Shown: positions 1-56,538 of the stretch, piece after piece | How the letters are laid out: each line of letters begins with the position of its first letter | How positions within the stretch are numbered: the stretch's first letter is position 1 | Assembly (NCBI GenBank): GCA_000004985.1 | Contig: GG738916.1 | From: Naegleria gruberi | Lineage: Eukaryota | Reading direction: 5' to 3' (one strand) | Length of the DNA stretch: 64,000 nt | Notes under the pieces: model-generated | What the model saw: only the letters and a program-made list of their open reading frames with translations | Database searches by the model: none | Told to the model about the DNA's origin: nothing | Translations under genes and position numbers: made by a program

Positions 1-311
1 GAACCCAAACCCAAACCCAAACCCAAACCCAAACCCAAACCCAAACCCAAACCCAAACCCAAACCCAAACCCAAACCCAAACCCAAACCCAAACCCAAAC
101 CCAAACCCAAACCCAAACCCAAACCCAAACCCAAACCCAACCCAAACCCAAACCCAAACCCAAACCCAAACCCAAACCCAAACCCAAACCCAAACCCAAA
201 CCCAAACCCAAACCCAAACCCAAACCCAAAACCAACCAAACCCAAACCCAAACCCAAACCCAAACCCAAACCCAAACCCAAACCCAAACCCAAACCCAAA
301 CCCAAACCCAA
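1..311 (+). repeat. Telomere-type hexamer array (CCCAAA)n on top strand = (TTTGGG)n, about 50 units with a few variant units (CCCAA near 137-150, CCAAAACCAACCAAA near 225-240). Runs off the window start.
   Basis: Perfect 6-nt periodicity read directly. The C-rich strand is 5'-3' at the left edge, as expected for a left chromosome end. Confidence 0.9.
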
Positions 312-3800: not shown

Positions 3801-4885
3801 NNNNNNNNNNNNNNNNNNNNNNNNNNNNNNNNNNNNNNNNNNNNNNNNNNNNNNNNNNNNNNNNNNNNNNNNNNNNNNNNNNNNNNNNNNNNNNNNNNNN
3901 NNNNNNNNNNNNNNNNNNNNNNNNNNNNNNNNNNNNNNNNNNNNNNNNNNNNNNNNNNNNNNNNNNNNNNNNNNNNNNNNNNNNNNNNNNNNNNNNNNNN
4001 NNNNNNNNNNNNNNNNNNNNNNNNNNNNNNNNNNNNNNNNNNNNNNNNNNNNNNNNNNNNNNNNNNNNNNNNNNNNNNNNNNNNNNNNNNNNNNNNNNNN
4101 NNNNNNNNNNNNNNNNNNNNNNNNNNNNNNNNNNNNNNNNNNNNNNNNNNNNNNNNNNNNNNNNNNNNNNNNNNNNNNNNNNNNNNNNNNNNNNNNNNNN
4201 NNNNNNNNNNNNNNNNNNNNNNNNNNNNNNNNNNNNNNNNNNNNNNNNNNNNNNNNNNNNNNNNNNNNNNNNNNNNNNNNNNNNNNNNNNNNNNNNNNNN
4301 NNNNNNNNNNNNNNNNNNNNNNNNNNNNNNNNNNNNNNNNNNNNNNNNNNNNNNNNNNNNNNNNNNNNNNNNNNNNNNNNNNNNNNNNNNNNNNNNNNNN
4401 NNNNNNNNNNNNNNNNNNNNNNNNNNNNNNNNNNNNNNNNNNNNNNNNNNNNNNNNNNNNNNNNNNNNNNNNNNNNNNNNNNNNNNNNNNNNNNNNNNNN
4501 NNNNNNNNNNNNNNNNNNNNNNNNNNNNNNNNNNNNNNNNNNNNNNNNNNNNNNNNNNNNNNNNNNNNNNNNNNNNNNNNNNNNNNNNNNNNNNNNNNNN
4601 NNNNNNNNNNNNNNNNNNNNNNNNNNNNNNNNNNNNNNNNNNNNNNNNNNNNNNNNNNNNNNNNNNNNNNNNNNNNNNNNNNNNNNNNNNNNNNNNNNNN
4701 NNNNNNNNNNNNNNNNNNNNNNNNNNNNNNNNNNNNNNNNNNNNNNNNNNNNNNNNNNNNNNNNNNNNNNNNNNNNNNNNNNNNNNNNNNNNNNNNNNNN
4801 NNNNNNNNNNNNNNNNNNNNNNNNNNNNNNNNNNNNNNNNNNNNNNNNNNNNNNNNNNNNNNNNNNNNNNNNNNNNNNNNNNNNN
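862..4885. other. N-run (4024 nt): assembly gap or masked sequence
   Basis: Continuous n characters. ORF-track 'proteins' consisting of X across it are artefacts. Confidence 0.95.
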
Positions 4886-6186: not shown

Positions 6187-9100
6187 NNNNNNNNNNNNNN
6201 NNNNNNNNNNNNNNNNNNNNNNNNNNNNNNNNNNNNNNNNNNNNNNNNNNNNNNNNNNNNNNNNNNNNNNNNNNNNNNNNNNNNNNNNNNNNNNNNNNNN
6301 NNNNNNNNNNNNNNNNNNNNNNNNNNNNNNNNNNNNNNNNNNNNNNNNNNNNNNNNNNNNNNNNNNNNNNNNNNNNNNNNNNNNNNNNNNNNNNNNNNNN
6401 NNNNNNNNNNNNNNNNNNNNNNNNNNNNNNNNNNNNNNNNNNNNNNNNNNNNNNNNNNNNNNNNNNNNNNNNNNNNNNNNNNNNNNNNNNNNNNNNNNNN
6501 NNNNNNNNNNNNNNNNNNNNNNNNNNNNNNNNNNNNNNNNNNNNNNNNNNNNNNNNNNNNNNNNNNNNNNNNNNNNNNNNNNNNNNNNNNNNNNNNNNNN
6601 NNNNNNNNNNNNNNNNNNNNNNNNNNNNNNNNNNNNNNNNNNNNNNNNNNNNNNNNNNNNNNNNNNNNNNNNNNNNNNNNNNNNNNNNNNNNNNNNNNNN
6701 NNNNNNNNNNNNNNNNNNNNNNNNNNNNNNNNNNNNNNNNNNNNNNNNNNNNNNNNNNNNNNNNNNNNNNNNNNNNNNNNNNNNNNNNNNNNNNNNNNNN
6801 NNNNNNNNNNNNNNNNNNNNNNNNNNNNNNNNNNNNNNNNNNNNNNNNNNNNNNNNNNNNNNNNNNNNNNNNNNNNNNNNNNNNNNNNNNNNNNNNNNNN
6901 NNNNNNNNNNNNNNNNNNNNNNNNNNNNNNNNNNNNNNNNNNNNNNNNNNNNNNNNNNNNNNNNNNNNNNNNNNNNNNNNNNNNNNNNNNNNNNNNNNNN
7001 NNNNNNNNNNNNNNNNNNNNNNNNNNNNNNNNNNNNNNNNNNNNNNNNNNNNNNNNNNNNNNNNNNNNNNNNNNNNNNNNNNNNNNNNNNNNNNNNNNNN
7101 NNNNNNNNNNNNNNNNNNNNNNNNNNNNNNNNNNNNNNNNNNNNNNNNNNNNNNNNNNNNNNNNNNNNNNNNNNNNNNNNNNNNNNNNNNNNNNNNNNNN
7201 NNNNNNNNNNNNNNNNNNNNNNNNNNNNNNNNNNNNNNNNNNNNNNNNNNNNNNNNNNNNNNNNNNNNNNNNNNNNNNNNNNNNNNNNNNNNNNNNNNNN
7301 NNNNNNNNNNNNNNNNNNNNNNNNNNNNNNNNNNNNNNNNNNNNNNNNNNNNNNNNNNNNNNNNNNNNNNNNNNNNNNNNNNNNNNNNNNNNNNNNNNNN
7401 NNNNNNNNNNNNNNNNNNNNNNNNNNNNNNNNNNNNNNNNNNNNNNNNNNNNNNNNNNNNNNNNNNNNNNNNNNNNNNNNNNNNNNNNNNNNNNNNNNNN
7501 NNNNNNNNNNNNNNNNNNNNNNNNNNNNNNNNNNNNNNNNNNNNNNNNNNNNNNNNNNNNNNNNNNNNNNNNNNNNNNNNNNNNNNNNNNNNNNNNNNNN
7601 NNNNNNNNNNNNNNNNNNNNNNNNNNNNNNNNNNNNNNNNNNNNNNNNNNNNNNNNNNNNNNNNNNNNNNNNNNNNNNNNNNNNNNNNNNNNNNNNNNNN
7701 NNNNNNNNNNNNNNNNNNNNNNNNNNNNNNNNNNNNNNNNNNNNNNNNNNNNNNNNNNNNNNNNNNNNNNNNNNNNNNNNNNNNNNNNNNNNNNNNNNNN
7801 NNNNNNNNNNNNNNNNNNNNNNNNNNNNNNNNNNNNNNNNNNNNNNNNNNNNNNNNNNNNNNNNNNNNNNNNNNNNNNNNNNNNNNNNNNNNNNNNNNNN
7901 NNNNNNNNNNNNNNNNNNNNNNNNNNNNNNNNNNNNNNNNNNNNNNNNNNNNNNNNNNNNNNNNNNNNNNNNNNNNNNNNNNNNNNNNNNNNNNNNNNNN
8001 NNNNNNNNNNNNNNNNNNNNNNNNNNNNNNNNNNNNNNNNNNNNNNNNNNNNNNNNNNNNNNNNNNNNNNNNNNNNNNNNNNNNNNNNNNNNNNNNNNNN
8101 NNNNNNNNNNNNNNNNNNNNNNNNNNNNNNNNNNNNNNNNNNNNNNNNNNNNNNNNNNNNNNNNNNNNNNNNNNNNNNNNNNNNNNNNNNNNNNNNNNNN
8201 NNNNNNNNNNNNNNNNNNNNNNNNNNNNNNNNNNNNNNNNNNNNNNNNNNNNNNNNNNNNNNNNNNNNNNNNNNNNNNNNNNNNNNNNNNNNNNNNNNNN
8301 NNNNNNNNNNNNNNNNNNNNNNNNNNNNNNNNNNNNNNNNNNNNNNNNNNNNNNNNNNNNNNNNNNNNNNNNNNNNNNNNNNNNNNNNNNNNNNNNNNNN
8401 NNNNNNNNNNNNNNNNNNNNNNNNNNNNNNNNNNNNNNNNNNNNNNNNNNNNNNNNNNNNNNNNNNNNNNNNNNNNNNNNNNNNNNNNNNNNNNNNNNNN
8501 NNNNNNNNNNNNNNNNNNNNNNNNNNNNNNNNNNNNNNNNNNNNNNNNNNNNNNNNNNNNNNNNNNNNNNNNNNNNNNNNNNNNNNNNNNNNNNNNNNNN
8601 NNNNNNNNNNNNNNNNNNNNNNNNNNNNNNNNNNNNNNNNNNNNNNNNNNNNNNNNNNNNNNNNNNNNNNNNNNNNNNNNNNNNNNNNNNNNNNNNNNNN
8701 NNNNNNNNNNNNNNNNNNNNNNNNNNNNNNNNNNNNNNNNNNNNNNNNNNNNNNNNNNNNNNNNNNNNNNNNNNNNNNNNNNNNNNNNNNNNNNNNNNNN
8801 NNNNNNNNNNNNNNNNNNNNNNNNNNNNNNNNNNNNNNNNNNNNNNNNNNNNNNNNNNNNNNNNNNNNNNNNNNNNNNNNNNNNNNNNNNNNNNNNNNNN
8901 NNNNNNNNNNNNNNNNNNNNNNNNNNNNNNNNNNNNNNNNNNNNNNNNNNNNNNNNNNNNNNNNNNNNNNNNNNNNNNNNNNNNNNNNNNNNNNNNNNNN
9001 NNNNNNNNNNNNNNNNNNNNNNNNNNNNNNNNNNNNNNNNNNNNNNNNNNNNNNNNNNNNNNNNNNNNNNNNNNNNNNNNNNNNNNNNNNNNNNNNNNNN

Positions 9101-9990
9101 NNNNNNNNNNNNNNNNNNNNNNNNNNNNNNNNNNNNNNNNNNNNNNNNNNNNNNNNNNNNNNNNNNNNNNNNNNNNNNNNNNNNNNNNNNNNNNNNNNNN
9201 NNNNNNNNNNNNNNNNNNNNNNNNNNNNNNNNNNNNNNNNNNNNNNNNNNNNNNNNNNNNNNNNNNNNNNNNNNNNNNNNNNNNNNNNNNNNNNNNNNNN
9301 NNNNNNNNNNNNNNNNNNNNNNNNNNNNNNNNNNNNNNNNNNNNNNNNNNNNNNNNNNNNNNNNNNNNNNNNNNNNNNNNNNNNNNNNNNNNNNNNNNNN
9401 NNNNNNNNNNNNNNNNNNNNNNNNNNNNNNNNNNNNNNNNNNNNNNNNNNNNNNNNNNNNNNNNNNNNNNNNNNNNNNNNNNNNNNNNNNNNNNNNNNNN
9501 NNNNNNNNNNNNNNNNNNNNNNNNNNNNNNNNNNNNNNNNNNNNNNNNNNNNNNNNNNNNNNNNNNNNNNNNNNNNNNNNNNNNNNNNNNNNNNNNNNNN
9601 NNNNNNNNNNNNNNNNNNNNNNNNNNNNNNNNNNNNNNNNNNNNNNNNNNNNNNNNNNNNNNNNNNNNNNNNNNNNNNNNNNNNNNNNNNNNNNNNNNNN
9701 NNNNNNNNNNNNNNNNNNNNNNNNNNNNNNNNNNNNNNNNNNNNNNNNNNNNNNNNNNNNNNNNNNNNNNNNNNNNNNNNNNNNNNNNNNNNNNNNNNNN
9801 NNNNNNNNNNNNNNNNNNNNNNNNNNNNNNNNNNNNNNNNNNNNNNNNNNNNNNNNNNNNNNNNNNNNNNNNNNNNNNNNNNNNNNNNNNNNNNNNNNNN
9901 NNNNNNNNNNNNNNNNNNNNNNNNNNNNNNNNNNNNNNNNNNNNNNNNNNNNNNNNNNNNNNNNNNNNNNNNNNNNNNNNNNNNNNNNNN
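6187..9990. other. N-run (3804 nt): assembly gap or masked sequence
   Basis: Continuous n characters. Confidence 0.95.
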
Positions 9991-10495: not shown

Positions 10496-12739
10496 ATGCC
10501 AACAACATCAACTCCTCACAAACGATATTCCACCTCCTTGATTTCTACTGAACTATTTCTTCTAACGATTGCTTGTTTCATTATTCTTCTTTGCTTCACA
10601 TGCAATACAATTGCCAACACAACCAAGAGCTCTTCACAATATTCTTCCCGCCTTTTAACCAAGCAACACATCAGCAACAAGAATAAAAAATTACATCAAC
10701 AACAAGATATTGCACCACATGCTTCCTCCATCACACCACAGGAAGCGCTAGACCTTTCAGCACCACCACTCAAATGTTTNNNNNNNNNNNNNNNNNNNNN
10801 NNNNNNNNNNNNNNNNNNNNNNNNNNNNNGTGTTTACGTGTATGGAAGATTGGTATTTTCTACTTCGTCCAAAGTTGTTGTCTTCAATTCAGCCCAAGCA
10901 ATTCTTCTCACCCAACAAGAACTCGAGGAGTTTACCATTGTGAATGTTCGAGATTTGCTGCTGAATATTGTTTCATTGGATAAGAGTCAGGTATTATCTG
11001 CCGTTCAATCACTAAAGAAGAAATTGAACAAGGCAGATGTGGACGATTATGTCCATCTATCCAGTTCCTACTTGGCAACCTCTCGTAGACAACAACCCAA
11101 GCGACCAACATCATTGGAAGAGGATGATTTGGTTGTATCCATCTCTGAAGGTTTATTGAACATGTCCATTCCTCTCTTGGACCAAGTTAGAACCAATACA
11201 ATCAATGATACCAATGTGTTGAGAGGTGTTGCTAGTGATATTCTCAACTGTTCATCCATATTGTTGGGTTCTGGTTTGAGTGTGAATGCTAGTGCAATAA
11301 GAAGAAATTCACACAACTCTAATATTAGGAATACCATCTATTCATCAGCATCATTGCTCTCACTTATTAGAGCACTCGAATCAACAACAACAACAATCAA
11401 GGTAGAAAATAGTGCTTTCAATTTAATTGTTTCTCATCAGCCAGACATGCAACTTGGTGAGACTCAAGTCCAAGTGCCATCATCTCTTCTCTCCAGTGAC
11501 AATATTGATTTCACACTCGTTACCTATTCTAGTGGGATCGACTTTGAATTGCTACCAGATAGTAATACCACTGGTTTACGTTCTGCTGCCAATATTGTAG
11601 AGCTGAGAAGATTAGTTGATGGTGAATATGATCCTCTTAGTGAGTTACAAAATCCAATAATACTCTCCTTTCCATTTTTCAACAACCTTACAATATTTAA
11701 CAGCAATTTTACACAAAATTTCACTTGCCGATACTATAATACAACAACCAGTGGATGGAGGACAAATGGATGTAAATTGGTCGGCAAGGATGACAAGTTT
11801 ATTACTTGCTCTTGTGATCATACAACAAGCTTTTCAGCATTTGTGGAATATTATCCAATAACAACAGATCCAACAACAGATCCCAACAATCCTACAAACT
11901 CAACAAGTCCTACCAACAAGAACACTGCTCTCAAGGCATTGGATAGTGGTCTGGTCATTTTCAAGATTGTCATTTCTGGTATTCTACTTTTGCTGATAGT
12001 ATCTGTAATGGTTGGTCTTATCATTTTCAGAAAGATGCAACCTGTGAAAAGCAGATACATCTTCCCATTTGTTGGATTGATTGCCCTGTTTGTTGATTTG
12101 GCATTTACTGGTATTGCTTCTAAAGCAGCTACTATTAATGTGCCACTCGATGAGCTAGTCTCTAGCAATAACACTCCAAACATTATCAATAGTATTAGCT
12201 TGGTTGTAACAACAAGTTTGACTGCTGTGGCTATTTGCTCTTACATGGTAGTGTGTATTAGATATATAATGTACAGATACTACTATCAGTGGATGTCGGC
12301 AGTAATTTCTCAAAAGTTAGAAAAGGCAACTAGTAGAGGAATTCGTCTTTTCAAGAATAATACCATCCTATTGGTGTCTGTATTTGCATTGGGTATTTCT
12401 ATTATTGCTTACTTTGTTATGCTTGTTATTTTGAGAAGAACTGACCAAATGAATGCAAAACAATTCTCCTATTCCTCATCAATTTCTCACTTTTTGATCA
12501 TGATAAGCTTCTTGATAGTGATTGGTATTGTTTATATGATTGATTTGATAATGGATTTCAGAACCAGACAAATTTCTGATGAGTTGCACGACATTTCCAA
12601 TGAAATTAATTCTACACAACAAAACACTAAAGGAACAATGGTGACCACTTTTAAGAAGGAAAATACTGCTTTTGTTGCATCTGCCAAATTGAAGCAATTA
12701 TTTGGAAAGAATAGTGCTCCATCTAAAATCTATCACTAA
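10496..12739 (+). CDS. GPS-motif (GAIN-type) multipass membrane receptor, adhesion-GPCR-like; contains a 50-nt N gap at 10780-10829.
   Basis: CRYYNTTTSGWRTNGCKLVGKDDKFITCSCDHTTSFSAFV fits the GPS pattern C-x-C-x-H-x-T-x-F-A-V. It is followed immediately by several long hydrophobic helices (LVIFKIVISGILLLLIVSVMVGLIIF, IFPFVGLIALFVDLAFTGIA, ...). N-terminal signal/anchor, with an N/S/T-rich ectodomain. Confidence 0.6.
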   Translation: MPTTSTPHKRYSTSLISTELFLLTIACFIILLCFTCNTIANTTKSSSQYSSRLLTKQHISNKNKKLHQQQDIAPHASSITPQEALDLSAPPLKCXXXXXXXXXXXXXXXXXXVYVYGRLVFSTSSKVVVFNSAQAILLTQQELEEFTIVNVRDLLLNIVSLDKSQVLSAVQSLKKKLNKADVDDYVHLSSSYLATSRRQQPKRPTSLEEDDLVVSISEGLLNMSIPLLDQVRTNTINDTNVLRGVASDILNCSSILLGSGLSVNASAIRRNSHNSNIRNTIYSSASLLSLIRALESTTTTIKVENSAFNLIVSHQPDMQLGETQVQVPSSLLSSDNIDFTLVTYSSGIDFELLPDSNTTGLRSAANIVELRRLVDGEYDPLSELQNPIILSFPFFNNLTIFNSNFTQNFTCRYYNTTTSGWRTNGCKLVGKDDKFITCSCDHTTSFSAFVEYYPITTDPTTDPNNPTNSTSPTNKNTALKALDSGLVIFKIVISGILLLLIVSVMVGLIIFRKMQPVKSRYIFPFVGLIALFVDLAFTGIASKAATINVPLDELVSSNNTPNIINSISLVVTTSLTAVAICSYMVVCIRYIMYRYYYQWMSAVISQKLEKATSRGIRLFKNNTILLVSVFALGISIIAYFVMLVILRRTDQMNAKQFSYSSSISHFLIMISFLIVIGIVYMIDLIMDFRTRQISDELHDISNEINSTQQNTKGTMVTTFKKENTAFVASAKLKQLFGKNSAPSKIYH

Positions 12740-13210: not shown

Positions 13211-15718
13211 NNNNNNNNNNNNNNNNNNNNNNNNNNNNNNNNNNNNNNNNNNNNNNNNNNNNNNNNNNNNNNNNNNNNNNNNNNNNNNNNNNNNNNNNNN
13301 NNNNNNNNNNNNNNNNNNNNNNNNNNNNNNNNNNNNNNNNNNNNNNNNNNNNNNNNNNNNNNNNNNNNNNNNNNNNNNNNNNNNNNNNNNNNNNNNNNNN
13401 NNNNNNNNNNNNNNNNNNNNNNNNNNNNNNNNNNNNNNNNNNNNNNNNNNNNNNNNNNNNNNNNNNNNNNNNNNNNNNNNNNNNNNNNNNNNNNNNNNNN
13501 NNNNNNNNNNNNNNNNNNNNNNNNNNNNNNNNNNNNNNNNNNNNNNNNNNNNNNNNNNNNNNNNNNNNNNNNNNNNNNNNNNNNNNNNNNNNNNNNNNNN
13601 NNNNNNNNNNNNNNNNNNNNNNNNNNNNNNNNNNNNNNNNNNNNNNNNNNNNNNNNNNNNNNNNNNNNNNNNNNNNNNNNNNNNNNNNNNNNNNNNNNNN
13701 NNNNNNNNNNNNNNNNNNNNNNNNNNNNNNNNNNNNNNNNNNNNNNNNNNNNNNNNNNNNNNNNNNNNNNNNNNNNNNNNNNNNNNNNNNNNNNNNNNNN
13801 NNNNNNNNNNNNNNNNNNNNNNNNNNNNNNNNNNNNNNNNNNNNNNNNNNNNNNNNNNNNNNNNNNNNNNNNNNNNNNNNNNNNNNNNNNNNNNNNNNNN
13901 NNNNNNNNNNNNNNNNNNNNNNNNNNNNNNNNNNNNNNNNNNNNNNNNNNNNNNNNNNNNNNNNNNNNNNNNNNNNNNNNNNNNNNNNNNNNNNNNNNNN
14001 NNNNNNNNNNNNNNNNNNNNNNNNNNNNNNNNNNNNNNNNNNNNNNNNNNNNNNNNNNNNNNNNNNNNNNNNNNNNNNNNNNNNNNNNNNNNNNNNNNNN
14101 NNNNNNNNNNNNNNNNNNNNNNNNNNNNNNNNNNNNNNNNNNNNNNNNNNNNNNNNNNNNNNNNNNNNNNNNNNNNNNNNNNNNNNNNNNNNNNNNNNNN
14201 NNNNNNNNNNNNNNNNNNNNNNNNNNNNNNNNNNNNNNNNNNNNNNNNNNNNNNNNNNNNNNNNNNNNNNNNNNNNNNNNNNNNNNNNNNNNNNNNNNNN
14301 NNNNNNNNNNNNNNNNNNNNNNNNNNNNNNNNNNNNNNNNNNNNNNNNNNNNNNNNNNNNNNNNNNNNNNNNNNNNNNNNNNNNNNNNNNNNNNNNNNNN
14401 NNNNNNNNNNNNNNNNNNNNNNNNNNNNNNNNNNNNNNNNNNNNNNNNNNNNNNNNNNNNNNNNNNNNNNNNNNNNNNNNNNNNNNNNNNNNNNNNNNNN
14501 NNNNNNNNNNNNNNNNNNNNNNNNNNNNNNNNNNNNNNNNNNNNNNNNNNNNNNNNNNNNNNNNNNNNNNNNNNNNNNNNNNNNNNNNNNNNNNNNNNNN
14601 NNNNNNNNNNNNNNNNNNNNNNNNNNNNNNNNNNNNNNNNNNNNNNNNNNNNNNNNNNNNNNNNNNNNNNNNNNNNNNNNNNNNNNNNNNNNNNNNNNNN
14701 NNNNNNNNNNNNNNNNNNNNNNNNNNNNNNNNNNNNNNNNNNNNNNNNNNNNNNNNNNNNNNNNNNNNNNNNNNNNNNNNNNNNNNNNNNNNNNNNNNNN
14801 NNNNNNNNNNNNNNNNNNNNNNNNNNNNNNNNNNNNNNNNNNNNNNNNNNNNNNNNNNNNNNNNNNNNNNNNNNNNNNNNNNNNNNNNNNNNNNNNNNNN
14901 NNNNNNNNNNNNNNNNNNNNNNNNNNNNNNNNNNNNNNNNNNNNNNNNNNNNNNNNNNNNNNNNNNNNNNNNNNNNNNNNNNNNNNNNNNNNNNNNNNNN
15001 NNNNNNNNNNNNNNNNNNNNNNNNNNNNNNNNNNNNNNNNNNNNNNNNNNNNNNNNNNNNNNNNNNNNNNNNNNNNNNNNNNNNNNNNNNNNNNNNNNNN
15101 NNNNNNNNNNNNNNNNNNNNNNNNNNNNNNNNNNNNNNNNNNNNNNNNNNNNNNNNNNNNNNNNNNNNNNNNNNNNNNNNNNNNNNNNNNNNNNNNNNNN
15201 NNNNNNNNNNNNNNNNNNNNNNNNNNNNNNNNNNNNNNNNNNNNNNNNNNNNNNNNNNNNNNNNNNNNNNNNNNNNNNNNNNNNNNNNNNNNNNNNNNNN
15301 NNNNNNNNNNNNNNNNNNNNNNNNNNNNNNNNNNNNNNNNNNNNNNNNNNNNNNNNNNNNNNNNNNNNNNNNNNNNNNNNNNNNNNNNNNNNNNNNNNNN
15401 NNNNNNNNNNNNNNNNNNNNNNNNNNNNNNNNNNNNNNNNNNNNNNNNNNNNNNNNNNNNNNNNNNNNNNNNNNNNNNNNNNNNNNNNNNNNNNNNNNNN
15501 NNNNNNNNNNNNNNNNNNNNNNNNNNNNNNNNNNNNNNNNNNNNNNNNNNNNNNNNNNNNNNNNNNNNNNNNNNNNNNNNNNNNNNNNNNNNNNNNNNNN
15601 NNNNNNNNNNNNNNNNNNNNNNNNNNNNNNNNNNNNNNNNNNNNNNNNNNNNNNNNNNNNNNNNNNNNNNNNNNNNNNNNNNNNNNNNNNNNNNNNNNNN
15701 NNNNNNNNNNNNNNNNNN
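13211..15718. other. N-run (2508 nt): gap immediately upstream of the internal telomere-type array
   Basis: Continuous n characters. Confidence 0.95.
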
Positions 15719-16190
15719 CCCAAACCCAAACCCAAACCCAAACCCAAACCCAAACCCAAACCCAAACCCAAACCCAAACCCAAACCCAAACCCAAACCCA
15801 AACCCAAACCCAAACCCAAACCCAAACCCAAACCCAAACCCAAACCCAAACCCAAACCCAAACCCAAACCCAAACCCAAACCCAAACCCAAACCCAAACC
15901 CAACCCCAACCCAAACCCAAACCCAAACCCAAACCCAAACCCAAACCCAACCCAAACCCAAACCCAAACCCAAACCCAAACCCAAACCCAAACCCAAACC
16001 CAAACCCAAACCCAAACCCAAACCCAAACCCAAACCCAAACCCAAACCCAAACCCAAACCCAAACCCAAACCCAAACCCAAACCCAAACCCAAACCCAAA
16101 CCCAAACCCAAACCCAAACCCAAACCCAAACCCAAACCCAAACCCAAACCCAAACCCAAACCCAAACCCAAACCCAAACCCAAACCCAAA
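15719..16190 (+). repeat. Interstitial telomere-type array (CCCAAA)n, about 78 units, same orientation as the terminal array; unit irregularities at ~15901 and ~15950.
   Basis: Direct read. The irregular units cause the PN/QT/PK and GL/VW/GF phase changes seen in the ORF track. Confidence 0.9.
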
Positions 16191-16197
16191 CCTGATA

Positions 16198-18495: not shown

Positions 18496-18567
18496 GGGGA
18501 CCAGTGGGAATCGAACCCACGGCCTCTCGCACCCAAAGCGAGAATCATACCACTAGACCATGGTCCC
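18496..18567 (-). tRNA. tRNA-Pro (anticodon UGG)
   Basis: Reverse-complement gives GGGACCATGGTCTAGTGGTATGATTCTCGCTTTGGGTGCGAGAGGCCGTGGGTTCGATTCCCACTGGTCCCC. Anticodon stem CTCGC/GCGAG with loop TTTGGGT (anticodon TGG, G37). T-arm GTGGGTTCGATTCCCAC. Acceptor GGGACCA/TGGTCCC. C73 discriminator as expected for Pro. Confidence 0.85.
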
Positions 18568-18638: not shown

Positions 18639-20549
18639 TTACAACATTTTTGAAACATGATAACCCAGTGCAAATAAACCCCATACCAGTATCACTATTT
18701 GAGACCACAACTGTATTTCCAAATACAGTGTCATTGTAATTGTTGATAACAAACTCAACAAGCAACCAACTAAGGGAGCATCCTTATATTTCCTCTTTTT
18801 TATCAGCATAAATGGCATGATAATGAACAAGAATGAAAGAAGGAGAAGAAGATATNNNNNNNNNNNNNNNNNNNNNNNNNNNNNNNNNNNNNNNNNNNNN
18901 NNNNNNNNNNNNNNNNNNNNNNNNNNNNNNNNNNNNNNNNNNNNNNNNNNNNNNNNNNNNNNNNNNNNNNNNNNNNNNNNNNNNNNNNNNNNNNNNNNNN
19001 NNNNNNNNNNNNNNNNNNNNNNNNNNNNNNNNNNNNNNNNNNNNNNNNNNNNNNNNNNNNNNNNNNNNNNNNNNNNNNNNNNNNNNNNNNNNNNNNNNNN
19101 NNNNNNNNNNNNNNNNNNNNNNNNNNNNNNNNNNNNNNNNNNNNNNNNNNNNNNNNNNNNNNNNNNNNNNNNNNNNNNNNNNNNNNNNNNNNNNNNNNNN
19201 NNNNNNNNNNNNNNNNNNNNNNNNNNNNNNNNNNNNNNNNNNNNNNNNNNNNNNNNNNNNNNNNNNNNNNNNNNNNNNNNNNNNNNNNNNNNNNNNNNNN
19301 NNNNNNNNNNNNNNNNNNNNNNNNNNNNNNNNNNNNNNNNNNNNNNNNNNNNNNNNNNNNNNNNNNNNNNNNNNNNNNNNNNNNNNNNNNNNNNNNNNNN
19401 NNNNNNNNNNNNNNNNNNNNNNNNNNNNNNNNNNNNNNNNNNNNNNNNNNNNNNNNNNNNNNNNNNNNNNNNNNNNNNNNNNNNNNNNNNNNNNNNNNNN
19501 NNNNNNNNNNNNNNNNNNNNNNNNNNNNNNNNNNNNNNNNNNNNNNNNNNNNNNNNNNNNNNNNNNNNNNNNNNNNNNNNNNNNNNNNNNNNNNNNNNNN
19601 NNNNNNNNNNNNNNNNNNNNNNNNNNNNNNNNNNNNNNNNNNNNNNNNNNNNNNNNNNNNNNNNNNNNNNNNNNNNNNNNNNNNNNNNNNNNNNNNNNNN
19701 NNNNNNNNNNNNNNNNNNNNNNNNNNNNNNNNNNNNNNNNNNNNNNNNNNNNNNNNNNNNNNNNNNNNNNNNNNNNNNNNNNNNNNNNNNNNNNNNNNNN
19801 NNNNNNNNNNNNNNNNNNNNNNNNNNNNNNNNNNNNNNNNNNNNNNNNNNNNNNNNNNNNNNNNNNNNNNNNNNNNNNNNNNNNNNNNNNNNNNNNNNNN
19901 NNNNNNNNNNNNNNNNNNNNNNNNNNNNNNNNNNNNNNNNNNNNNNNNNNNNNNNNNNNNNNNNNNNNNNNNNNNNNNNNNNNNNNNNNNNNNNNNNNNN
20001 NNNNNNNNNNNNNNNNNNNNNNNNNNNNNNNNNNNNNNNNNNNNNNNNNNNNNNNNNNNNNNNNNNNNNNNNNNNNNNNNNNNNNNNNNNNNNNNNNNNN
20101 NNNNNNNNNNNNNNNNNNNNNNNNNNNNNNNNNNNNNNNNNNNNNNNNNNNNNNNNNNNNNNNNNNNNNNNNNNNNNNNNNNNNNNNNNNNNNNNNNNNN
20201 NNNNNNNNNNNNNNNNNNNNNNNNNNNNNNNNNNNNNNNNNNNNNNNNNNNNNNNNNNNNNNNNNNNNNNNNNNNNNNNNNNNNNNNNNNNNNNNNNNNN
20301 NNNNNNNNNNNNNNNNNNNNNNNNNNNNNNNNNNNNNNNNNNNNNNNNNNNNNNNNNNNNNNNNNNNNNNNNNNNNNNNNNNNNNNNNNNNNNNNNNNNN
20401 NNNNNNNNNTGATCGGCAGTTTTTGAAATTTCTTCTAATTGTTCATTGAAAATATATCCCATTAGATACAAGAGTTGACCTAAAAGTGTTGATTTACCAC
20501 TGCCTGATTGCCCGATCAGTGAAATGGTGTGGGTTGGCTTATCGAGCAT
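18639..20549 (-). CDS. Probable ABCG-type half transporter (N-terminal nucleotide-binding domain, C-terminal membrane domain); middle hidden by the 1564-nt N-run at 18846-20409.
   Basis: The N-terminal visible part has Walker A LIGQSGSGKSTLLGQ. The C-terminal visible part ends in a hydrophobic helix (VILVWGLFALGYHV). Whether the two pieces are one gene cannot be verified through the gap. Confidence 0.4.
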   Translation of the reverse strand: MLDKPTHTISLIGQSGSGKSTLLGQLLYLMGYIFNEQLEEISKTADXXXXXXXXXXXXXXXXXXXXXXXXXXXXXXXXXXXXXXXXXXXXXXXXXXXXXXXXXXXXXXXXXXXXXXXXXXXXXXXXXXXXXXXXXXXXXXXXXXXXXXXXXXXXXXXXXXXXXXXXXXXXXXXXXXXXXXXXXXXXXXXXXXXXXXXXXXXXXXXXXXXXXXXXXXXXXXXXXXXXXXXXXXXXXXXXXXXXXXXXXXXXXXXXXXXXXXXXXXXXXXXXXXXXXXXXXXXXXXXXXXXXXXXXXXXXXXXXXXXXXXXXXXXXXXXXXXXXXXXXXXXXXXXXXXXXXXXXXXXXXXXXXXXXXXXXXXXXXXXXXXXXXXXXXXXXXXXXXXXXXXXXXXXXXXXXXXXXXXXXXXXXXXXXXXXXXXXXXXXXXXXXXXXXXXXXXXXXXXXXXXXXXXXXXXXXXXXXXXXXXXXXXXXXXXXXXXXXXXXXXXXXXXXXXXXXXXXXXXXXXXXXXXXXXXXXXXXXXXXXXXXXXXXXXXXXXXXXXXXXXXXXXXXXXXXXXXXXXXXYLLLLLSFLFIIMPFMLIKKRKYKDAPLVGCLLSLLSTITMTLYLEIQLWSQIVILVWGLFALGYHVSKML

Positions 20550-21802: not shown

Positions 21803-21873
21803 CTCGAGTGCCGGGAATTGAACCCGGGTCGCCAGAGTGACAGTCTGGAATGCTACCACTATACCACACCCGA
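21803..21873 (-). tRNA. tRNA-Asp (anticodon GUC)
   Basis: Reverse-complement TCGGGTGTGGTATAGTGGTAGCATTCCAGACTGTCACTCTGGCGACCCGGGTTCAATTCCCGGCACTCGAG. Anticodon stem CCAGA/TCTGG with loop CTGTCAC (GTC). T-arm CCGGGTTCAATTCCCGG. Closely parallels animal tRNA-Asp. A T5 run follows the 3' end (Pol III terminator). Confidence 0.85.
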
Positions 21874-32449: not shown

Positions 32450-32564
32450 AATTTATTTCTTCTAATAGTTGAATTTTGTTGAAAATCAATTATTTTTACT
32501 ATTTCTAAAAATGCTAAATTGGATTGATAATATTGATTTTGTAAATTTTTATTAATATTGTAAA

Positions 32565-32930
32565 TCGGGTGTGGTATAGTGGTAGCATTCCAGACTGTCA
32601 CTCTGGCGACCCGGGTTCAATTTGTTTTGTTAGTGTGTGGGTAATAGTTGAATGATATCGGTCATTCCTTATTTGGAAATTTCATTCCCGGTACCCATGG
32701 TATGAACGAGAGTTTTGGTTGTTAATCATTTCTCGAGTGGTTTGGATGAAGTTACAGTTATGAATAATTATCAAGGAATTGGAGACACAATACTACAATA
32801 ATAATGTGTTTATTAAATGTTAATTTAGCGTCACGGTGATTACTCTGTGTTTTTATAATTTAATNNNNNNNNNNNNNNNNNNNNNNNNNNNNNNNNNNNN
32901 NNNNNNNNNNNNNNTATTCCGGCACTCGAG
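32565..32930 (+). pseudogene. Second tRNA-Asp(GUC) copy split in the T-loop. 5' portion 32565-32622 (through GGGTTCAATT). 3' portion 32917-32930 (TTCCGGCACTCGAG plus T5 terminator). About 294 bp of unrelated sequence including a 50-N gap lies between.
   Basis: 58/58 identity to the intact tRNA-Asp at 21803-21873 up to the T-loop. After the N-run, the T-stem 3' strand and acceptor 3' strand reappear with the same T-rich 3' flank. Confidence 0.7.
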
Positions 32931-33195
32931 AAGCAATTTTTATATTTTCTAGTTCAATATTCCTTATTTTTCGTTCAATTTTCATATAATGGTAGTTTAG
33001 ATATCCTGCTTGAATATAGCATTTTTTATTTTTTTAAAATTTTATGTATTTCCTTTTTTAGAAGCCTCAGTTTGAGCCCTATTTTTTTCTCCTTCAAAAA
33101 TGTCCTAAAGATATAATGCTTCTTCCTAGAATGAACAACATCATTCGAGCAATTTTGTGTCACATATTGAATGTGGACTTTCATCAGAAAGTGTT

Positions 33196-35100
33196 TTATT
33201 TCTTTTTCATGTTTTCAATCTTAATTCTTCCAAAACAACATCTGAAAGTTAGGAAAAGAAGTGAAAGAGCAATTGAGCTAACGAAAATCAATGGAATATT
33301 AAGTTGAATATACCAAGAAAGTTTGGTGGAAACATCTCTCAAATGTTCATCCAAATGATCAAAAGCAACATCAATGATAATTTCACCAGCAGTCAGCACA
33401 TTATTCGAAACTATTTCAGTGACATTCTTGAATGATTCTCCAAAACTTTGAATTGTTGAAATGCTCAACTTGGCAGCATTTTGATTAATTCTCATAATTT
33501 CTCTCATTCTCTTCTTAATTTCCATTCTATCTCTCAAAACTGTTTTCATGCTCTTGACAAATGACTTTTCATCTCGATTGTAAATATCTTCAGAAATGTC
33601 AAATCCAAATCCTAAATCTTCTGAACGAACAGAGTTGGAAAATTGATCGGCAAATATTGGGAATGTCAAAATTGGAACCTGATTATCAACTGCTTCAAAT
33701 AGTGAGTGAGCTCCTGCATGTGTTACAAAAACTGAAGTAGCCGAATGTGAAAGAATTAACTCCTGATTGACCCATGTTTGGAACAGAATCTTACTAGAAA
33801 CTGATTCAGACAAATTTAACTTGGCATGTCCTTCATGAACACAAATAACTCGAATATTCTCATCAGATTTTACAATAAAATTCAAAATTGTTGTAATGTG
33901 TTCATGAGAAATTTCCAATTTAGTTCCAAAGGCCACATAAACAATTGAGAATTTTCTTTCCAATTGATCATCCAACCATGCCACCATCTCATCATCCATT
34001 AAATTATCATTCTTCTCATTGAACATTGTAAAATTAGATTCTCCCAAATTGTCGAATAATTTTGGTTTTCCAACAAGTTTGTGATCCTTCTTTGATTTTG
34101 CCTTATAACCAACAAATCGATTATTATGTGAAATTGCATAACTATAATCCAAAACTCCAGGAGCTGTAAAGTGAATGAAAGTTTTTTCTGAGGTTGTGAA
34201 TAAAATTTCATTCTTTTCTGTCATGTTGTTTGCTCGCCTGTCAGAATTCAATTCTTGAATCGATTTAATTCCCTGGAGAATAATTTGACCTTGGATGTAA
34301 ACTTCTTCATAGAGACGTGTCAGTAAATATTTGAAAATTCCTTCTTCTCTGTAAATTCTTTCAAGTTTTGCAAGACTTGTTGTGGTGAAGGGAAATCTGC
34401 CAATATATTGAGGAGTGTGGTGATTGAAAATGACAGATGGCATAATGTTTACAATGACAAAATTAAAACCTTCTCTTTGGACGTAATCAACTGCTGAATG
34501 AGCTGTCATGTCAATCACAAATAAAATATCTTCTGGACGTTCTTCCTTAATTGACCTCATTTCAGAATCTTGTTCAAACATGTTATCAATTGTTTGAATG
34601 ATAGTTGAATAGGCAACTGACAAGATATCGATACCCATGACATATCTTTTCATTTTGGAAGTTTCACTCTTTCTAAAACCATCCATTTCTTTCAATTTAG
34701 CTTTAACTTTCGAATCCTTAATATCATACATCAAAGTTGGAGTGAAATATTGCTCATGTGGGAAATATTCACTCATTGAATTATTGGCAATTTCTTCCAA
34801 CACACTCTTCCATATAAAAACTGTCAAAACTTTAACTTGGGAAATATTAAATCCTTTACATTTGGCATTTAAAATCAAACTTGTAGCTTTTGCAACATCT
34901 GACATATCTCTAACATGAGAACTATCAGGTGTAGGTATAAAAACGAATTGTTTCCTAGTACAATCTTGTTCCGTGGTTGTTCTTGCTAAATTCTTCACAT
35001 CAAATTCCTTGGCGTGAATGTGAACAAAAATTAGCACGAGCGAAAAAGCAAGAAGGGCAAGAAGCGGGAGATAAATTCCAGACTTGTGGCGATGGAACAT
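33196..35100 (-). CDS. UDP-glycosyltransferase (GT1/UGT family), type I membrane protein with signal peptide, C-terminal TM and K-rich tail
   Basis: UGT signature WVNQELILSHSATSVFVTHAGAHSLFEAVDNQVPILTFPIFADQFSN. N-terminal signal LPLLALLAFSLVLIFV. C-terminal helix plus KIENMKKK dilysine-like ER retention tail. Confidence 0.85.
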   Translation of the reverse strand: MFHRHKSGIYLPLLALLAFSLVLIFVHIHAKEFDVKNLARTTTEQDCTRKQFVFIPTPDSSHVRDMSDVAKATSLILNAKCKGFNISQVKVLTVFIWKSVLEEIANNSMSEYFPHEQYFTPTLMYDIKDSKVKAKLKEMDGFRKSETSKMKRYVMGIDILSVAYSTIIQTIDNMFEQDSEMRSIKEERPEDILFVIDMTAHSAVDYVQREGFNFVIVNIMPSVIFNHHTPQYIGRFPFTTTSLAKLERIYREEGIFKYLLTRLYEEVYIQGQIILQGIKSIQELNSDRRANNMTEKNEILFTTSEKTFIHFTAPGVLDYSYAISHNNRFVGYKAKSKKDHKLVGKPKLFDNLGESNFTMFNEKNDNLMDDEMVAWLDDQLERKFSIVYVAFGTKLEISHEHITTILNFIVKSDENIRVICVHEGHAKLNLSESVSSKILFQTWVNQELILSHSATSVFVTHAGAHSLFEAVDNQVPILTFPIFADQFSNSVRSEDLGFGFDISEDIYNRDEKSFVKSMKTVLRDRMEIKKRMREIMRINQNAAKLSISTIQSFGESFKNVTEIVSNNVLTAGEIIIDVAFDHLDEHLRDVSTKLSWYIQLNIPLIFVSSIALSLLFLTFRCCFGRIKIENMKKK

Positions 35101-35389
35101 CTTGTTGGGGATGTGATTTGTTTTTTTTCTTCAATCATTTCAATGTAAAAGTTGAAATGTGGAAAGTTAAAGTTCCAGATTAGAATAACCGTACATTGCG
35201 GCCTTAGAAAACCGCTCCAAATTAGTAAGATTCAATGATTGAACATGATTGAATGGCTTAGCACAGCATGTGTCTCCGCCAAGTTTTTAACTTGAGGAAA
35301 ACTAAGGAAGTCTTTGAATTTCAATGCTATTAAAAATAGCAGTGTTAAGAGAGAGCAGTACTTCAAAGAAAGAGATTAAAATGCTAAAA

Positions 35390-35477
35390 GGCGACTGAGG
35401 GAATTGAACCCTCGACCCTCAGTTATCTCAGCATTTCTGCCTACAAGACTGATGCACTGCCACTGTGCTAAGCCGCC
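35390..35477 (-). tRNA. tRNA-Thr (anticodon UGU) with a 17-nt intron at the canonical 37/38 position
   Basis: Reverse-complement GGCGGCTTAGCACAGTGGCAGTGCATCAGTCTTGTA[GGCAGAAATGCTGAGAT]AACTGAGGGTCGAGGGTTCAATTCCCTCAGTCGCC. Acceptor GGCGGCT/AGTCGCC. D-arm GCAC..GTGC. Anticodon stem TCAGT/ACTGA with loop CTTGTA|A. T-arm GAGGGTTCAATTCCCTC. Confidence 0.7.
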
Positions 35478-35610
35478 TTACGAAGATTTTATATACAACA
35501 TTTTATGTCGATGTTATGTTCTTTAGAAAATCTACAACCACCTTCATCAATCCACCAATAATTATTTTCAAATGTTGGTTGTAGTGGAATGACTTGTTGG
35601 ATAAAATTTA

Positions 35611-52324: not shown

Positions 52325-53344
52325 CTACTCTTCAAAATCTACCAATTCTGCTTCAACACTTAATTTCTCTTTGTAGTGTAAATGGGCATACTCGAATACC
52401 AATCTTTCTTCTTCTTCACCTATATCGTCCTTGTTGAAATCTATCAAGTTTGGTGCATCATGTTTGACAACTTCGAAAACAATTTGCTTATCTTTTCTCA
52501 GTTGATTGGGTAAATAATAAAAAACCCTTCTACATTGTTTAACAGCTGCTAGGGCAACCTCTCTATCATTTAATAGTTCTTCAGAAGCAAAAATAATATT
52601 CATTCCATTTGATTTAACATATTCCAAAACTATTTCCTTATCATTTTTAACTAGAAATAAGAATTCTAAATTTGAGTTTTGACGAAGAGCTTCTAATATG
52701 AATTCTCTGTCGTTTTTTAGTTGATCAGAACAATATTGAAGTGCGTTTCCATTAATCTTGACAGCTTTCAGAGCTAGTTCTCTATCATTTCTCAATTCTT
52801 TAGAAGCATATGCGAATACGTTACTTCCATATTTCTCAACAAGTGGCAAAACAAATGATTTCCTTCTCCACAAGTCCAAAAACGTTGGAATTTTGTAAAA
52901 TCTTGAACAAGAGCAAGGATGAAAAATTGAACAGGTAGTGCAGAAATTATTTGGCGTAAATAAATCCATAAATCGTCTTGTAAAGTATTCGCCATCCCTC
53001 TCCCAATTCGAAACTAAACGAGAACTTTCATAATAATTAATCGAACAGTTCACCACCCCGACTACAGGAAAATACAATGTCGGTTGAATTAGTAATTCCC
53101 ACTTGTGTTTTGATGGTAAATCTCTAATTTGACAAATTAATAGATCGGAAGCAAAATTCAAATCCAAATACAACACCACCCCATCTGGTAAACAACAATT
53201 AATTTCATCATTATTCGCACCATCATCATTAGAAGAAGACATAATTTCATGATTGTACAGATGGTGATGATTTAAATTCCTCCGTTTTGAATCTGAATAA
53301 TAACCGGCAGAAGAATAAGAATTTTCAAAACAACTTCTTTTCAT
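52325..53344 (-). CDS. DUF4116-repeat protein
   Basis: Tandem ~30-aa repeats: RELALKAVKINGNALQYCSDQLKNDREFILEALRQN / KEIVLEYVKSNGMNIIFASEELLNDREVALAAVKQ. Confidence 0.6.
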   Translation of the reverse strand: MKRSCFENSYSSAGYYSDSKRRNLNHHHLYNHEIMSSSNDDGANNDEINCCLPDGVVLYLDLNFASDLLICQIRDLPSKHKWELLIQPTLYFPVVGVVNCSINYYESSRLVSNWERDGEYFTRRFMDLFTPNNFCTTCSIFHPCSCSRFYKIPTFLDLWRRKSFVLPLVEKYGSNVFAYASKELRNDRELALKAVKINGNALQYCSDQLKNDREFILEALRQNSNLEFLFLVKNDKEIVLEYVKSNGMNIIFASEELLNDREVALAAVKQCRRVFYYLPNQLRKDKQIVFEVVKHDAPNLIDFNKDDIGEEEERLVFEYAHLHYKEKLSVEAELVDFEE

Positions 53345-53383
53345 TTTTTTGTTATTTGTTACAATAATAAAATTGTGGCCATT
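53171..53383 (+). repeat. Copy A of a ~200-bp direct repeat (spans the start codon and first ~60 codons of the DUF4116 gene plus its 5' flank). Copy B is at 56351-56538.
   Basis: By eye, about 80-85% identity with indels (caacaccacccca..gtaaacaacaattaatttc..catcatcattagaagaag..ataatttcatgattgtac.gatggtgatgatttaaattcctccgtttt..cttcttttcattttttt). Confidence 0.75.
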
Positions 53384-56305: not shown

Positions 56306-56350
56306 TTCAAAATAAACTGTATTATGGCCTTTCACTATATTTATTATATA

Positions 56351-56538
56351 CAACACCACCCCAGCTTGTAAACAACAATTAATTTCGCGTCATCATCATT
56401 AGAAGAAGAAATAATTTCATGATTGTACGGATGGTGATGATTTAAATTCCTCCGTTTTTAATATGAATAATAGACGAATTTTCACAACTGCTTCTTTTCA
56501 TTTTTTTGTAATTTATTACAATAATAAACTGCGGCCAC
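56351..56538 (+). pseudogene. Copy B of the direct repeat: degenerate 5' fragment of the DUF4116 gene (start codon retained, stop after ~19 codons)
   Basis: Minus-strand reading gives MKRSSCENSSIIHIKNGGI*, against MKRSCFENSYSS... in the intact gene. Confidence 0.65.

What the first reader, a model, noticed from the sequence alone, without database searches (positions are those of the whole stretch)
32565..32930. tRNA-Asp gene split inside the T-loop by a ~0.3-kb insertion that contains a scaffold gap
The 5' 58 nt of tRNA-Asp (identical to the intact copy at 21803-21873) stop after GGGTTCAATT. The matching T-stem 3' strand, acceptor 3' strand and T5 terminator (TTCCGGCACTCGAG-aagcaattttt) resume 294 bp later, immediately after a 50-N gap. 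The two halves would fold into a complete tRNA, so a functional gene was interrupted at a precise point. Candidates are a mobile-element insertion into a tRNA gene, a tRNA-derived SINE-like rearrangement, or a local assembly artefact at a repeated tRNA.
Basis: seen in the sequence. Interest (0 to 1): 0.55.

Follow-up and report, generated by a model that had tools for sequence, protein, structure and literature searches.

The report
Interrupted tRNA-Asp gene at assembly gap
One copy of a multi-copy aspartate tRNA gene near a chromosome end in the draft Naegleria gruberi genome is broken in its T-loop by at least 242 bp of unrelated non-coding DNA that runs into an assembly gap; this is probably an ordinary gene-killing insertion or an assembly error, and only sequencing reads can tell which.

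Summary
Window 32565-32622 is the first 58 nt of tRNA-Asp(GTC), identical to the intact copy at 21803-21873. It joins, inside a contig, to 242 bp of unrelated DNA. After a 50-N gap come 16 nt of tRNA 3' end and a T5 terminator at +7, the spacing seen at every tRNA gene in the window. The window is a gap-rich, subtelomeric Naegleria gruberi draft scaffold. The intervening DNA has no ORF, significant fold, Rfam match, second copy in the window, or match to E. coli, plasmid, phage, IMG/VR or JGI metagenome sequence. It starts TGTT, has TTTT at +3 and ends in pure A/T at the gap. A SINE-type origin, an intron, a bacterial-style tRNA-restoring integration and a diverged allele of the downstream flank were each tested or considered and are not supported. 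A genuine, possibly one-haplotype, insertion (about 0.5) cannot be separated from an assembly artefact (about 0.35) without reads. Both are ordinary. Interest is low.

The parts
32498..32564 (+). Native 5' flank of the interrupted tRNA-Asp gene, sharing upstream motifs with the intact copy (ATTTCTAAAA at about -65, AATATTGA at about -35, GTAA just before +1)
   Evidence: Alignment with the upstream flank of the intact copy; BLAST 82% over 130 bp including the tRNA part; upstream flanks listed
32565..32622 (+). 5' fragment of tRNA-Asp(GTC), nt 1-58: acceptor 5' strand, D arm with A box, anticodon arm, T-stem 5' strand and T-loop up to TTCAATT. It carries a truncated B box (GGTTCAATT then TG instead of CC).
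   Evidence: 58/58 identity to 21803-21873(-); unique beyond chance
32623..32864 (.). 242 bp of unrelated intervening DNA, the visible proximal part of the interruption. It starts TGTTTTG, has T4 at 32625-32628, and its last 15 nt (32850-32864) are pure A/T.
   Evidence: Stops in all six frames and 32% GC; fold z = +1.09; no Rfam hit at E<=10; no other copy in the window; not homologous to the downstream flank, z = -0.36; no match in E. coli genomes, plasmids or phages by blastn; exact probes from it absent from JGI metagenomes (one probe) and IMG/VR (two probes)
32865..32914 (.). Scaffold gap of 50 N, apparently a placeholder of unknown true size, hiding the distal end of the interruption and the right-hand junction
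   Evidence: N-run table
32915..32930 (+). 3' fragment of tRNA-Asp: T, then ATT (duplicating nt 56-58), then CCGG (T-stem 3' strand lacking one C), then CACTCGAG (acceptor 3' strand plus discriminator)
   Evidence: CCGGCACTCGAG unique beyond chance; ARAGORN calls tRNA-Asp after in-silico joining
32937..32941 (+). T5 Pol III terminator of the original gene, starting at +7 after the tRNA 3' end
   Evidence: All four tRNA 3' ends in the window have their first T>=4 run at +7
21803..21873 (-). Intact tRNA-Asp(GTC) reference copy, 71 nt
   Evidence: ARAGORN; Rfam RF00005, 57.1 bits

Best explanation
A once-functional copy of the multi-copy tRNA-Asp(GTC) gene in a subtelomeric intergenic spacer of Naegleria gruberi was interrupted between nt 58 and 59 (T-loop, inside the Pol III B box) by foreign non-coding DNA of at least 242 bp. 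The distal part of that DNA, probably A/T-rich simple sequence, could not be assembled. The insertion may be present on only one haplotype. Shown: the in-contig left junction, the authentic gene context on both sides, and the unrelatedness of the intervening DNA. Inferred: that the DNA is an insertion, most likely a short non-autonomous mobile element, solo terminal repeat or retroposed/filler fragment whose class is undetermined. Also inferred: that the gene copy is dead. The B box loses its 3' CC, and a TTTT lies 3 nt past the junction. T4 serves as the first terminator at two other tRNA genes here, so Pol III would release a ~61-64-nt RNA lacking the T-stem and acceptor 3' strands. Intact copies elsewhere supply tRNA-Asp.
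For: The left junction lies inside a contig, 242 bp from the gap, with 58/58 identity followed by an abrupt loss of similarity. The right contig begins within 1-4 nt of the same point in the tRNA and duplicates ATT. That coincidence is expected if the discontinuity is real on both sides and is hard to obtain from a randomly placed chimeric clone junction (inference). Both flanks are genuine tRNA-gene context: upstream motifs are shared with the intact copy, and the terminator sits at +7 as at all other tRNA genes. The insert is not a diverged allele of the downstream flank, and blastn against E. coli genomes, plasmids and phages finds no match, so host or vector contamination is unlikely. Its GC content is 32% and it has no ORF. 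It starts TGTT, as many LTR/TIR ends do, and becomes pure A/T at the gap edge, a plausible reason for the Sanger assembly break. The missing C in the 3' piece fits a decaying dead copy. N. gruberi is reported to carry DNA transposons and retrotransposons, including young insertions (PMC12344493).
Against: No element hallmark is demonstrable. The right end and any full target-site duplication are in the gap. No second copy was found in the window or in any searchable collection, and the rest of the N. gruberi genome could not be queried. There is no transposase, RT or integrase gene nearby. The scaffold is 19% N and shows other signs of assembly trouble, including an internal telomere array. 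If the gap really is about 50 bp, ordinary Sanger reads should have spanned a ~300-bp insertion, so some extra factor such as heterozygosity or simple sequence has to be assumed.
Confidence: 0.5

Rival explanations
1. Assembly artefact. The tRNA-Asp gene is intact in the genome. The 242-bp tail of the left contig comes from a chimeric clone or read, or from a mis-joined repeat or haplotype path. The assembler could not merge the two contigs, so it placed a minimum-size 50-N gap between sequences that actually abut or overlap at ATT.
For: The draft scaffold has six gaps in 33 kb (19% N), and two of them are exactly 50 N, the apparent placeholder size. The region is subtelomeric, with a second telomere-type array 15 kb inside the scaffold, which suggests scaffolding problems. 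The first bases of the right contig differ from the intact copy in ways typical of poor read ends or GC compression (A->T, CCC->CC). The insert has no element hallmark and no second copy in the window. Removing the tail and the gap restores a callable tRNA-Asp.
Against: A chimeric junction would fall at a random position, yet the independent right contig starts within a few nt of it. With normal coverage, reads spanning an intact 71-nt gene would have merged the contigs. The tRNA repeat is only 71 nt, and repeat-induced breaks would be expected at its borders, not inside the T-loop. The tail is Naegleria-like in composition and blastn finds no E. coli or plasmid match.
Confidence: 0.35
2. Site-specific mobile element that targets the conserved T-loop/B-box sequence GGGTTCAATTCCC of tRNA genes. 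This would be a heterolobosean counterpart of the Dada DNA transposons or of target-specific retroelements, and this locus would be one of many such insertions. It is a special case of the insertion explanation.
For: The break falls in the most conserved tRNA motif. The identical GGGTTCAATTCCC is also present in tRNA-Thr in the window. Dada elements insert inside tRNA genes, including tRNA-Asp-GTC, have no TIRs and occur in a protist, Perkinsus. At least 3 nt are duplicated at the break.
Against: Only one case was seen. The other T-loops in the window are intact. Documented Dada targets are the anticodon region and the A box, not the T-loop, and neither paper mentions Naegleria. No transposase was seen. 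The 6-7-bp TSD cannot be checked.
Confidence: 0.05
3. Biologically split gene: a non-canonical, very long intron in the T-loop that is spliced out to give a functional tRNA-Asp.
For: The two exon-like pieces are colinear, lie on the same strand and are called tRNA-Asp when joined. Non-canonical tRNA intron positions are known in archaea, a red alga and nucleomorphs (my own knowledge, not checked here).
Against: The length (at least 293 nt) is far beyond known tRNA introns. TTTT at +3 of the putative intron would terminate Pol III, since T4 is the first terminator at tRNA-Pro and tRNA-Thr here. The B box is split. The joined product lacks one T-stem C. The insert has no significant structure. 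The intron-containing tRNA-Thr in the window is a normal 91-nt call with its anticodon at position 34. The bulge-helix-bulge motif cannot be assessed because the 3' junction is in the gap.
Confidence: 0.01

Closest known systems
Dada DNA transposons (Kojima & Jurka 2013, PMC3706591; Kojima 2022, PMC8869645)
   Same: Insertion inside, not beside, multi-copy tRNA genes, including tRNA-Asp-GTC. The logic is that a conserved multi-copy target makes the insertion harmless. They have no terminal inverted repeats and are present in at least one protist, Perkinsus.
   Different: Documented targets are the anticodon region and the A box, with 6-7-bp TSDs. They encode a DDE transposase and occur in many copies at the same site. 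Here the site is the T-loop/B box, only about 3 nt of duplication is visible, no transposase is seen, and a single copy is known. Membership is not shown.
tRNA-gene-targeted retrotransposons of compact genomes (Dictyostelium TRE5/TRE3 and DGLT-A, yeast Ty3; PMC6101501 listed, details from my own knowledge)
   Same: Mobile elements associated with Pol III genes in gene-dense protist or yeast genomes. The insert begins TGTT, as many LTRs do.
   Different: Those elements integrate at fixed distances upstream or downstream and leave the tRNA gene intact. Here the gene body itself is broken.
Bacterial and archaeal integrative elements at tRNA genes (tyrosine-integrase att sites in the T-loop or anticodon loop; my own knowledge)
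   Same: The break point is in the T-loop, and a displaced 3' tRNA fragment lies at the far side of the inserted DNA.
   Different: Those elements carry a replacement 3' end, so the gene stays intact at the proximal junction. Here no tRNA is callable at the left junction, and the host is a eukaryote.
Contig-end artefacts in Sanger whole-genome shotgun drafts (chimeric clones, haplotype splits at heterozygous indels)
   Same: The feature touches a placeholder gap in a gap-rich, subtelomeric scaffold that has other anomalies.
   Different: The artefact model does not readily explain why the two independent contig ends meet at the same 3 nt of the tRNA.

Membership tests
tRNA gene (tRNA-Asp GTC) | Complete cloverleaf recognised by a tRNA detector or covariance model at the locus as assembled | tested here: not met
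   ARAGORN and Rfam RF00005 call only 18496-18567, 21803-21873 and 35388-35478. There is no Rfam hit at E<=10 in 32450-33050.
tRNA gene (tRNA-Asp GTC) | The two fragments together reconstitute the gene | tested here: met
   ARAGORN calls tRNA-Asp(gtc) on the in-silico joins. The product is 70 nt with one T-stem C missing and a 6-nt T-loop.
tRNA gene (tRNA-Asp GTC) | Native Pol III gene context (upstream motifs, T-run terminator) | tested here: met
   Upstream motifs are shared with the intact copy. T5 lies at +7, as at all tRNA genes in the window.
Dada DNA transposon | DDE transposase encoded by the element | not testable with these tools
   The visible 242 bp has stops in all frames, and the rest is in the gap. 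No transposase was found among ten neighbouring ORFs.
Dada DNA transposon | 6-7-bp target-site duplication | tested here: inconclusive
   Only ATT (3 nt) is visibly duplicated before the gap cuts the right junction.
Dada DNA transposon | Insertion at a family-specific site, around the anticodon or the A box in known families, recurring in many gene copies | tested here: not met
   The site is the T-loop/B box, whereas known targets are the anticodon region and the A box. Recurrence could not be tested. The other tRNAs in the window are intact, and the metagenome scan for this tRNA returned nothing.
LTR retrotransposon / solo LTR | 5'-TG...CA-3' termini flanked by a 4-6-bp TSD | tested here: inconclusive
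   The insert starts TGTT. The single base visible before the duplicated ATT is T, not A, and the end is otherwise hidden by the gap.
tRNA-derived SINE | Retroposed tRNA-like head detached from native gene flanks, plus body and tail, in many copies | tested here: not met
   The 5' fragment is 100% identical to the gene and keeps the gene's upstream motifs. The insert's own tRNA resemblance is not significant: local z = 0.85, semi-global z = 1.77, no hit with relaxed ARAGORN, no CM hit.
Non-canonical tRNA intron (bulge-helix-bulge type) | Bulge-helix-bulge motif formed by both exon-intron junctions | not testable with these tools
   The 3' junction lies in the 50-N gap. Indirect evidence is negative: T4 at +3, length of at least 293 nt, no stable fold.
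Integrase-type island at a tRNA gene | The element supplies a replacement 3' end, so the tRNA is intact at the proximal junction | tested here: not met
   No tRNA is callable at the left junction. A CCCGGTACCC motif 64 nt into the insert is not significant.

The most novel reading that the evidence does not exclude
The 242 bp is the end of a previously undescribed mobile element of Heterolobosea that integrates site-specifically into the universally conserved T-loop/B-box motif (GGTTCAATTCC) of tRNA genes. That target region is not used by any described Dada family or other tRNA-targeting element.
Probability: 0.04. Interest if true: 0.6.

Novelty: new member of a known kind. Interest (0 to 1): 0.15.

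Why it matters
If the insertion is real, it is one more dead copy of a redundant tRNA gene in a subtelomeric region, of interest mainly to annotators: the locus should be labelled a tRNA pseudogene and not be missed or 'repaired'. It would matter more only if the same sequence turned out to sit in the T-loops of other tRNA genes, which would define a new target-specific element class in a deep-branching eukaryote. If it is an artefact, it flags a mis-assembled spot in the reference, together with the nearby internal telomere array.

Tried and rejected
(1) Independent assembly of the locus. Exact-protein look-ups of both neighbouring genes and of the NCBI protein P0001 found nothing. The only relative, P0002 (69% identity, from a metagenome), sits on a 2-kb contig that ends 96 bp after the gene, too short to reach the tRNA.
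(2) Other copies of the insert. Exact probes from the insert found nothing in JGI metagenomes (one probe) or in IMG/VR (two probes). The tRNA's own 24-mer also found nothing in metagenomes, so that collection is uninformative for this organism.
(3) Contamination. No blastn match in E. coli genomes, plasmids or phages.
(4) 'The insert is a diverged allele or paralogue of the true downstream flank', prompted by an 11-mer at the same offset on both sides. Rejected: global alignment z = -0.36.
(5) 'The insert begins with a degenerate tRNA-like unit (SINE head or tandem copy)'. Not supported.
(6) The 10-nt inverted match TTCTCGAGTG/CACTCGAGAA. Six of the ten bases are the XhoI palindrome, so I judged it chance.
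(7) Calibrating the meaning of '50 N' from the other 50-N gap. No continuous ORF or overlap was usable.
(8) The original genome paper could not be read, so the assembler's gap convention and the heterozygosity figures are not cited.
(9) RNA structure or RNA family in the insert. None found.

Full report
Source and setting. The ORF at 33196-35100(-) is 100% identical over its full 634 aa to an NCBI Naegleria gruberi UDP-glucosyltransferase encoded on a 245,038-bp scaffold. The window is therefore part of the N. gruberi draft genome. It holds six N-runs (862-4885, 6187-9990, 10780-10829, 13211-15718, 18856-20409 and 32865-32914), which make up 19% of the sequence. Two of them are exactly 50 N, which looks like a placeholder size. 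The window opens with (AACCCA)52 at 2-311 and has a second array in the same orientation, (CCCAAA)79, at 15719-16192, directly after a gap. TTTGGG is the published candidate telomere repeat of N. gruberi (PMC3622300). The locus under study is thus subtelomeric, about 32 kb from the scaffold's telomeric end, in a stretch whose scaffolding is questionable. Neighbouring genes are ordinary (SET, RGS, Sir2, UDPGT, APH, RCC1), and there are no mobile-element genes. The feature lies in the 746-bp spacer between two convergent genes, ending at 32449 and 33196.

The observation. 32565-32622 matches the first 58 nt of the intact tRNA-Asp(GTC) at 21803-21873(-) at every position and then loses all similarity. 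After 242 bp and 50 N, the sequence resumes with TATTCCGGCACTCGAG followed by AAGCAATTTTT. Both fragments occur only here and at the intact copy, with zero expected by chance. First, the intact gene reads AATTCCCGG where the post-gap piece reads TATTCCGG. One C of the T-stem 3' strand is missing, so a simple join gives a 70-nt gene with a 6-nt T-loop. ARAGORN nevertheless calls such joins tRNA-Asp(gtc). Second, ATT (nt 56-58) is present on both sides of the interruption. Third, the locus as assembled is not recognised as a tRNA by ARAGORN or by Rfam, even at E<=10.

Both flanks are authentic gene context. The upstream 70 nt share ATTTCTAAAA, AATATTGA and a terminal GTAA with the upstream flank of the intact copy. 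All four tRNA 3' ends in the window, including the post-gap fragment, have their first T>=4 run at exactly +7. The post-gap flank also resembles the intact copy's downstream region more than shuffles do (z = 3.5). This was therefore a normal tRNA-Asp gene and not a retroposed tRNA-derived head.

The intervening 242 bp. It has stops in all six frames and is 32% GC, against about 29% for the flanking 0.6-kb stretches. Its predicted fold is no more stable than shuffles (z = +1.09). It has no Rfam match, no significant internal or terminal repeat and no other copy in the window. It matches nothing in E. coli genomes, plasmids or phages by blastn, and exact probes from it are absent from IMG/VR and JGI metagenomes. 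An 11-mer at the same offset on both sides suggested that it might be a diverged allele of the true downstream flank. A global alignment rejects this (z = -0.36). By eye, its first 78 nt resemble a degenerate tRNA-Asp in three colinear blocks. The resemblance is not significant: the local score is reached by 210 of 1000 shuffles and the semi-global score by 50 of 1000. Relaxed ARAGORN finds nothing in it. Directly visible features are a TGTT start, a TTTT at +3 to +6 (32625-32628), and a pure A/T final 15 nt at the gap edge.

Consequences for the gene (inference). The break removes the 3' CC of the B box: GGTTCAATTCC becomes GGTTCAATTTG. It also places a T4 three nt past the junction. tRNA-Pro and tRNA-Thr in the window have only T4 as their first downstream T-run, so Pol III would probably stop there. 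The product would be a ~61-64-nt RNA without the T-stem and acceptor 3' strands, which could not function as a tRNA. The intact copy 10.7 kb away, and presumably others elsewhere in the genome, cover tRNA-Asp function.

Real insertion or artefact. The left junction is inside a contig, 242 bp from the gap, so the gap alone does not create the break. The right contig starts within a few nucleotides of the same point in the tRNA. If the left tail were a randomly placed chimeric clone junction, that coincidence would be unlikely, and reads spanning an intact 71-nt gene should have merged the contigs. A repeat-induced break would be expected at the borders of the 71-nt repeat and not inside the T-loop. 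These arguments are inference from how shotgun assembly behaves, and they favour a true discontinuity in at least part of the sequenced DNA. A heterozygous insertion, or an A/T-rich simple tract at the distal end of the insert, would explain why the assembler stopped. Against this, the region is demonstrably poorly assembled. The first bases of the right contig differ from the intact copy in ways typical of poor read ends. No hallmark of any element class can be shown. I put a genuine insertion at about 0.5 and an artefact at about 0.35. The rest is spread over special cases.

Comparison with known systems. Dada DNA transposons are the closest concept. They insert inside multi-copy tRNA and snRNA genes, including tRNA-Asp-GTC, lack TIRs, make 6-7-bp TSDs and occur in animals and Perkinsus. 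Their documented targets are the anticodon region and the A box, not the T-loop. No transposase, full TSD or recurrence can be shown here, so membership is not established. tRNA-targeted retrotransposons of Dictyostelium and yeast integrate beside tRNA genes and not inside them. Prokaryote-type integrases at tRNA T-loops regenerate the gene at the proximal junction, which is not the case here. A non-canonical T-loop intron is disfavoured by the length, the T4 at +3, the split B box, the missing C and the lack of structure.

Verdict. The interpretation stays open between two ordinary alternatives, and the SINE-type, intron, integrase-type and allelic-flank readings were tested or considered and are not supported. 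Public NEG-M Nanopore reads exist and would settle the matter in one mapping step. Interest is low unless the same 242 bp is found in the T-loops of other tRNA genes.

Noticed in passing
window 2-311 and 15719-16192: Two arrays of the N. gruberi candidate telomere repeat lie in the same orientation: (AACCCA)52 at the very start of the window and (CCCAAA)79 immediately right of the 2508-N gap. TTTGGG is the published candidate telomere motif (PMC3622300). An internal 474-bp telomere array 15 kb from a terminal one suggests a scaffold mis-join of two chromosome ends or an interstitial telomeric site. The unique DNA on the two sides shares no similarity.
   Followed up: partly
window 1-20409: Five of the six assembly gaps, about 12 kb of N, fall in the first 20 kb next to the telomere arrays, so this subtelomeric stretch is very poorly assembled.
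   Followed up: no
window 18496-18567(-), 21803-21873(-), 32565-32930(+), 35388-35478(-): All four tRNA loci have their first downstream T>=4 run at exactly +7. Three of them (Pro, intact Asp, split Asp) have GTAA at or within 1 nt of the 5' end, and Thr has CGTA. The two Asp loci also share ATTTCTAAAA (about -65) and AATATTGA (about -35). These may be conserved Pol III flanking signals in Naegleria.
   Followed up: partly
window 35388-35478(-): tRNA-Thr(TGT) is 91 nt and so presumably contains an intron. Its T-arm core GGGTTCAATTCCC is identical to that of tRNA-Asp.
   Followed up: no
window 53168-53381 and 56348-56537: A ~200-bp direct repeat at 81% identity, 3.2 kb apart, is the only other sizeable intra-window repeat besides the tRNA-Asp loci.
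   Followed up: no
L001/L002 (ERR1078381, PRJEB11402 metagenome): An environmental metagenome contig encodes a UDP-glycosyltransferase 69% identical to the N. gruberi neighbour gene, indicating a Naegleria relative in that sample.
   Followed up: no
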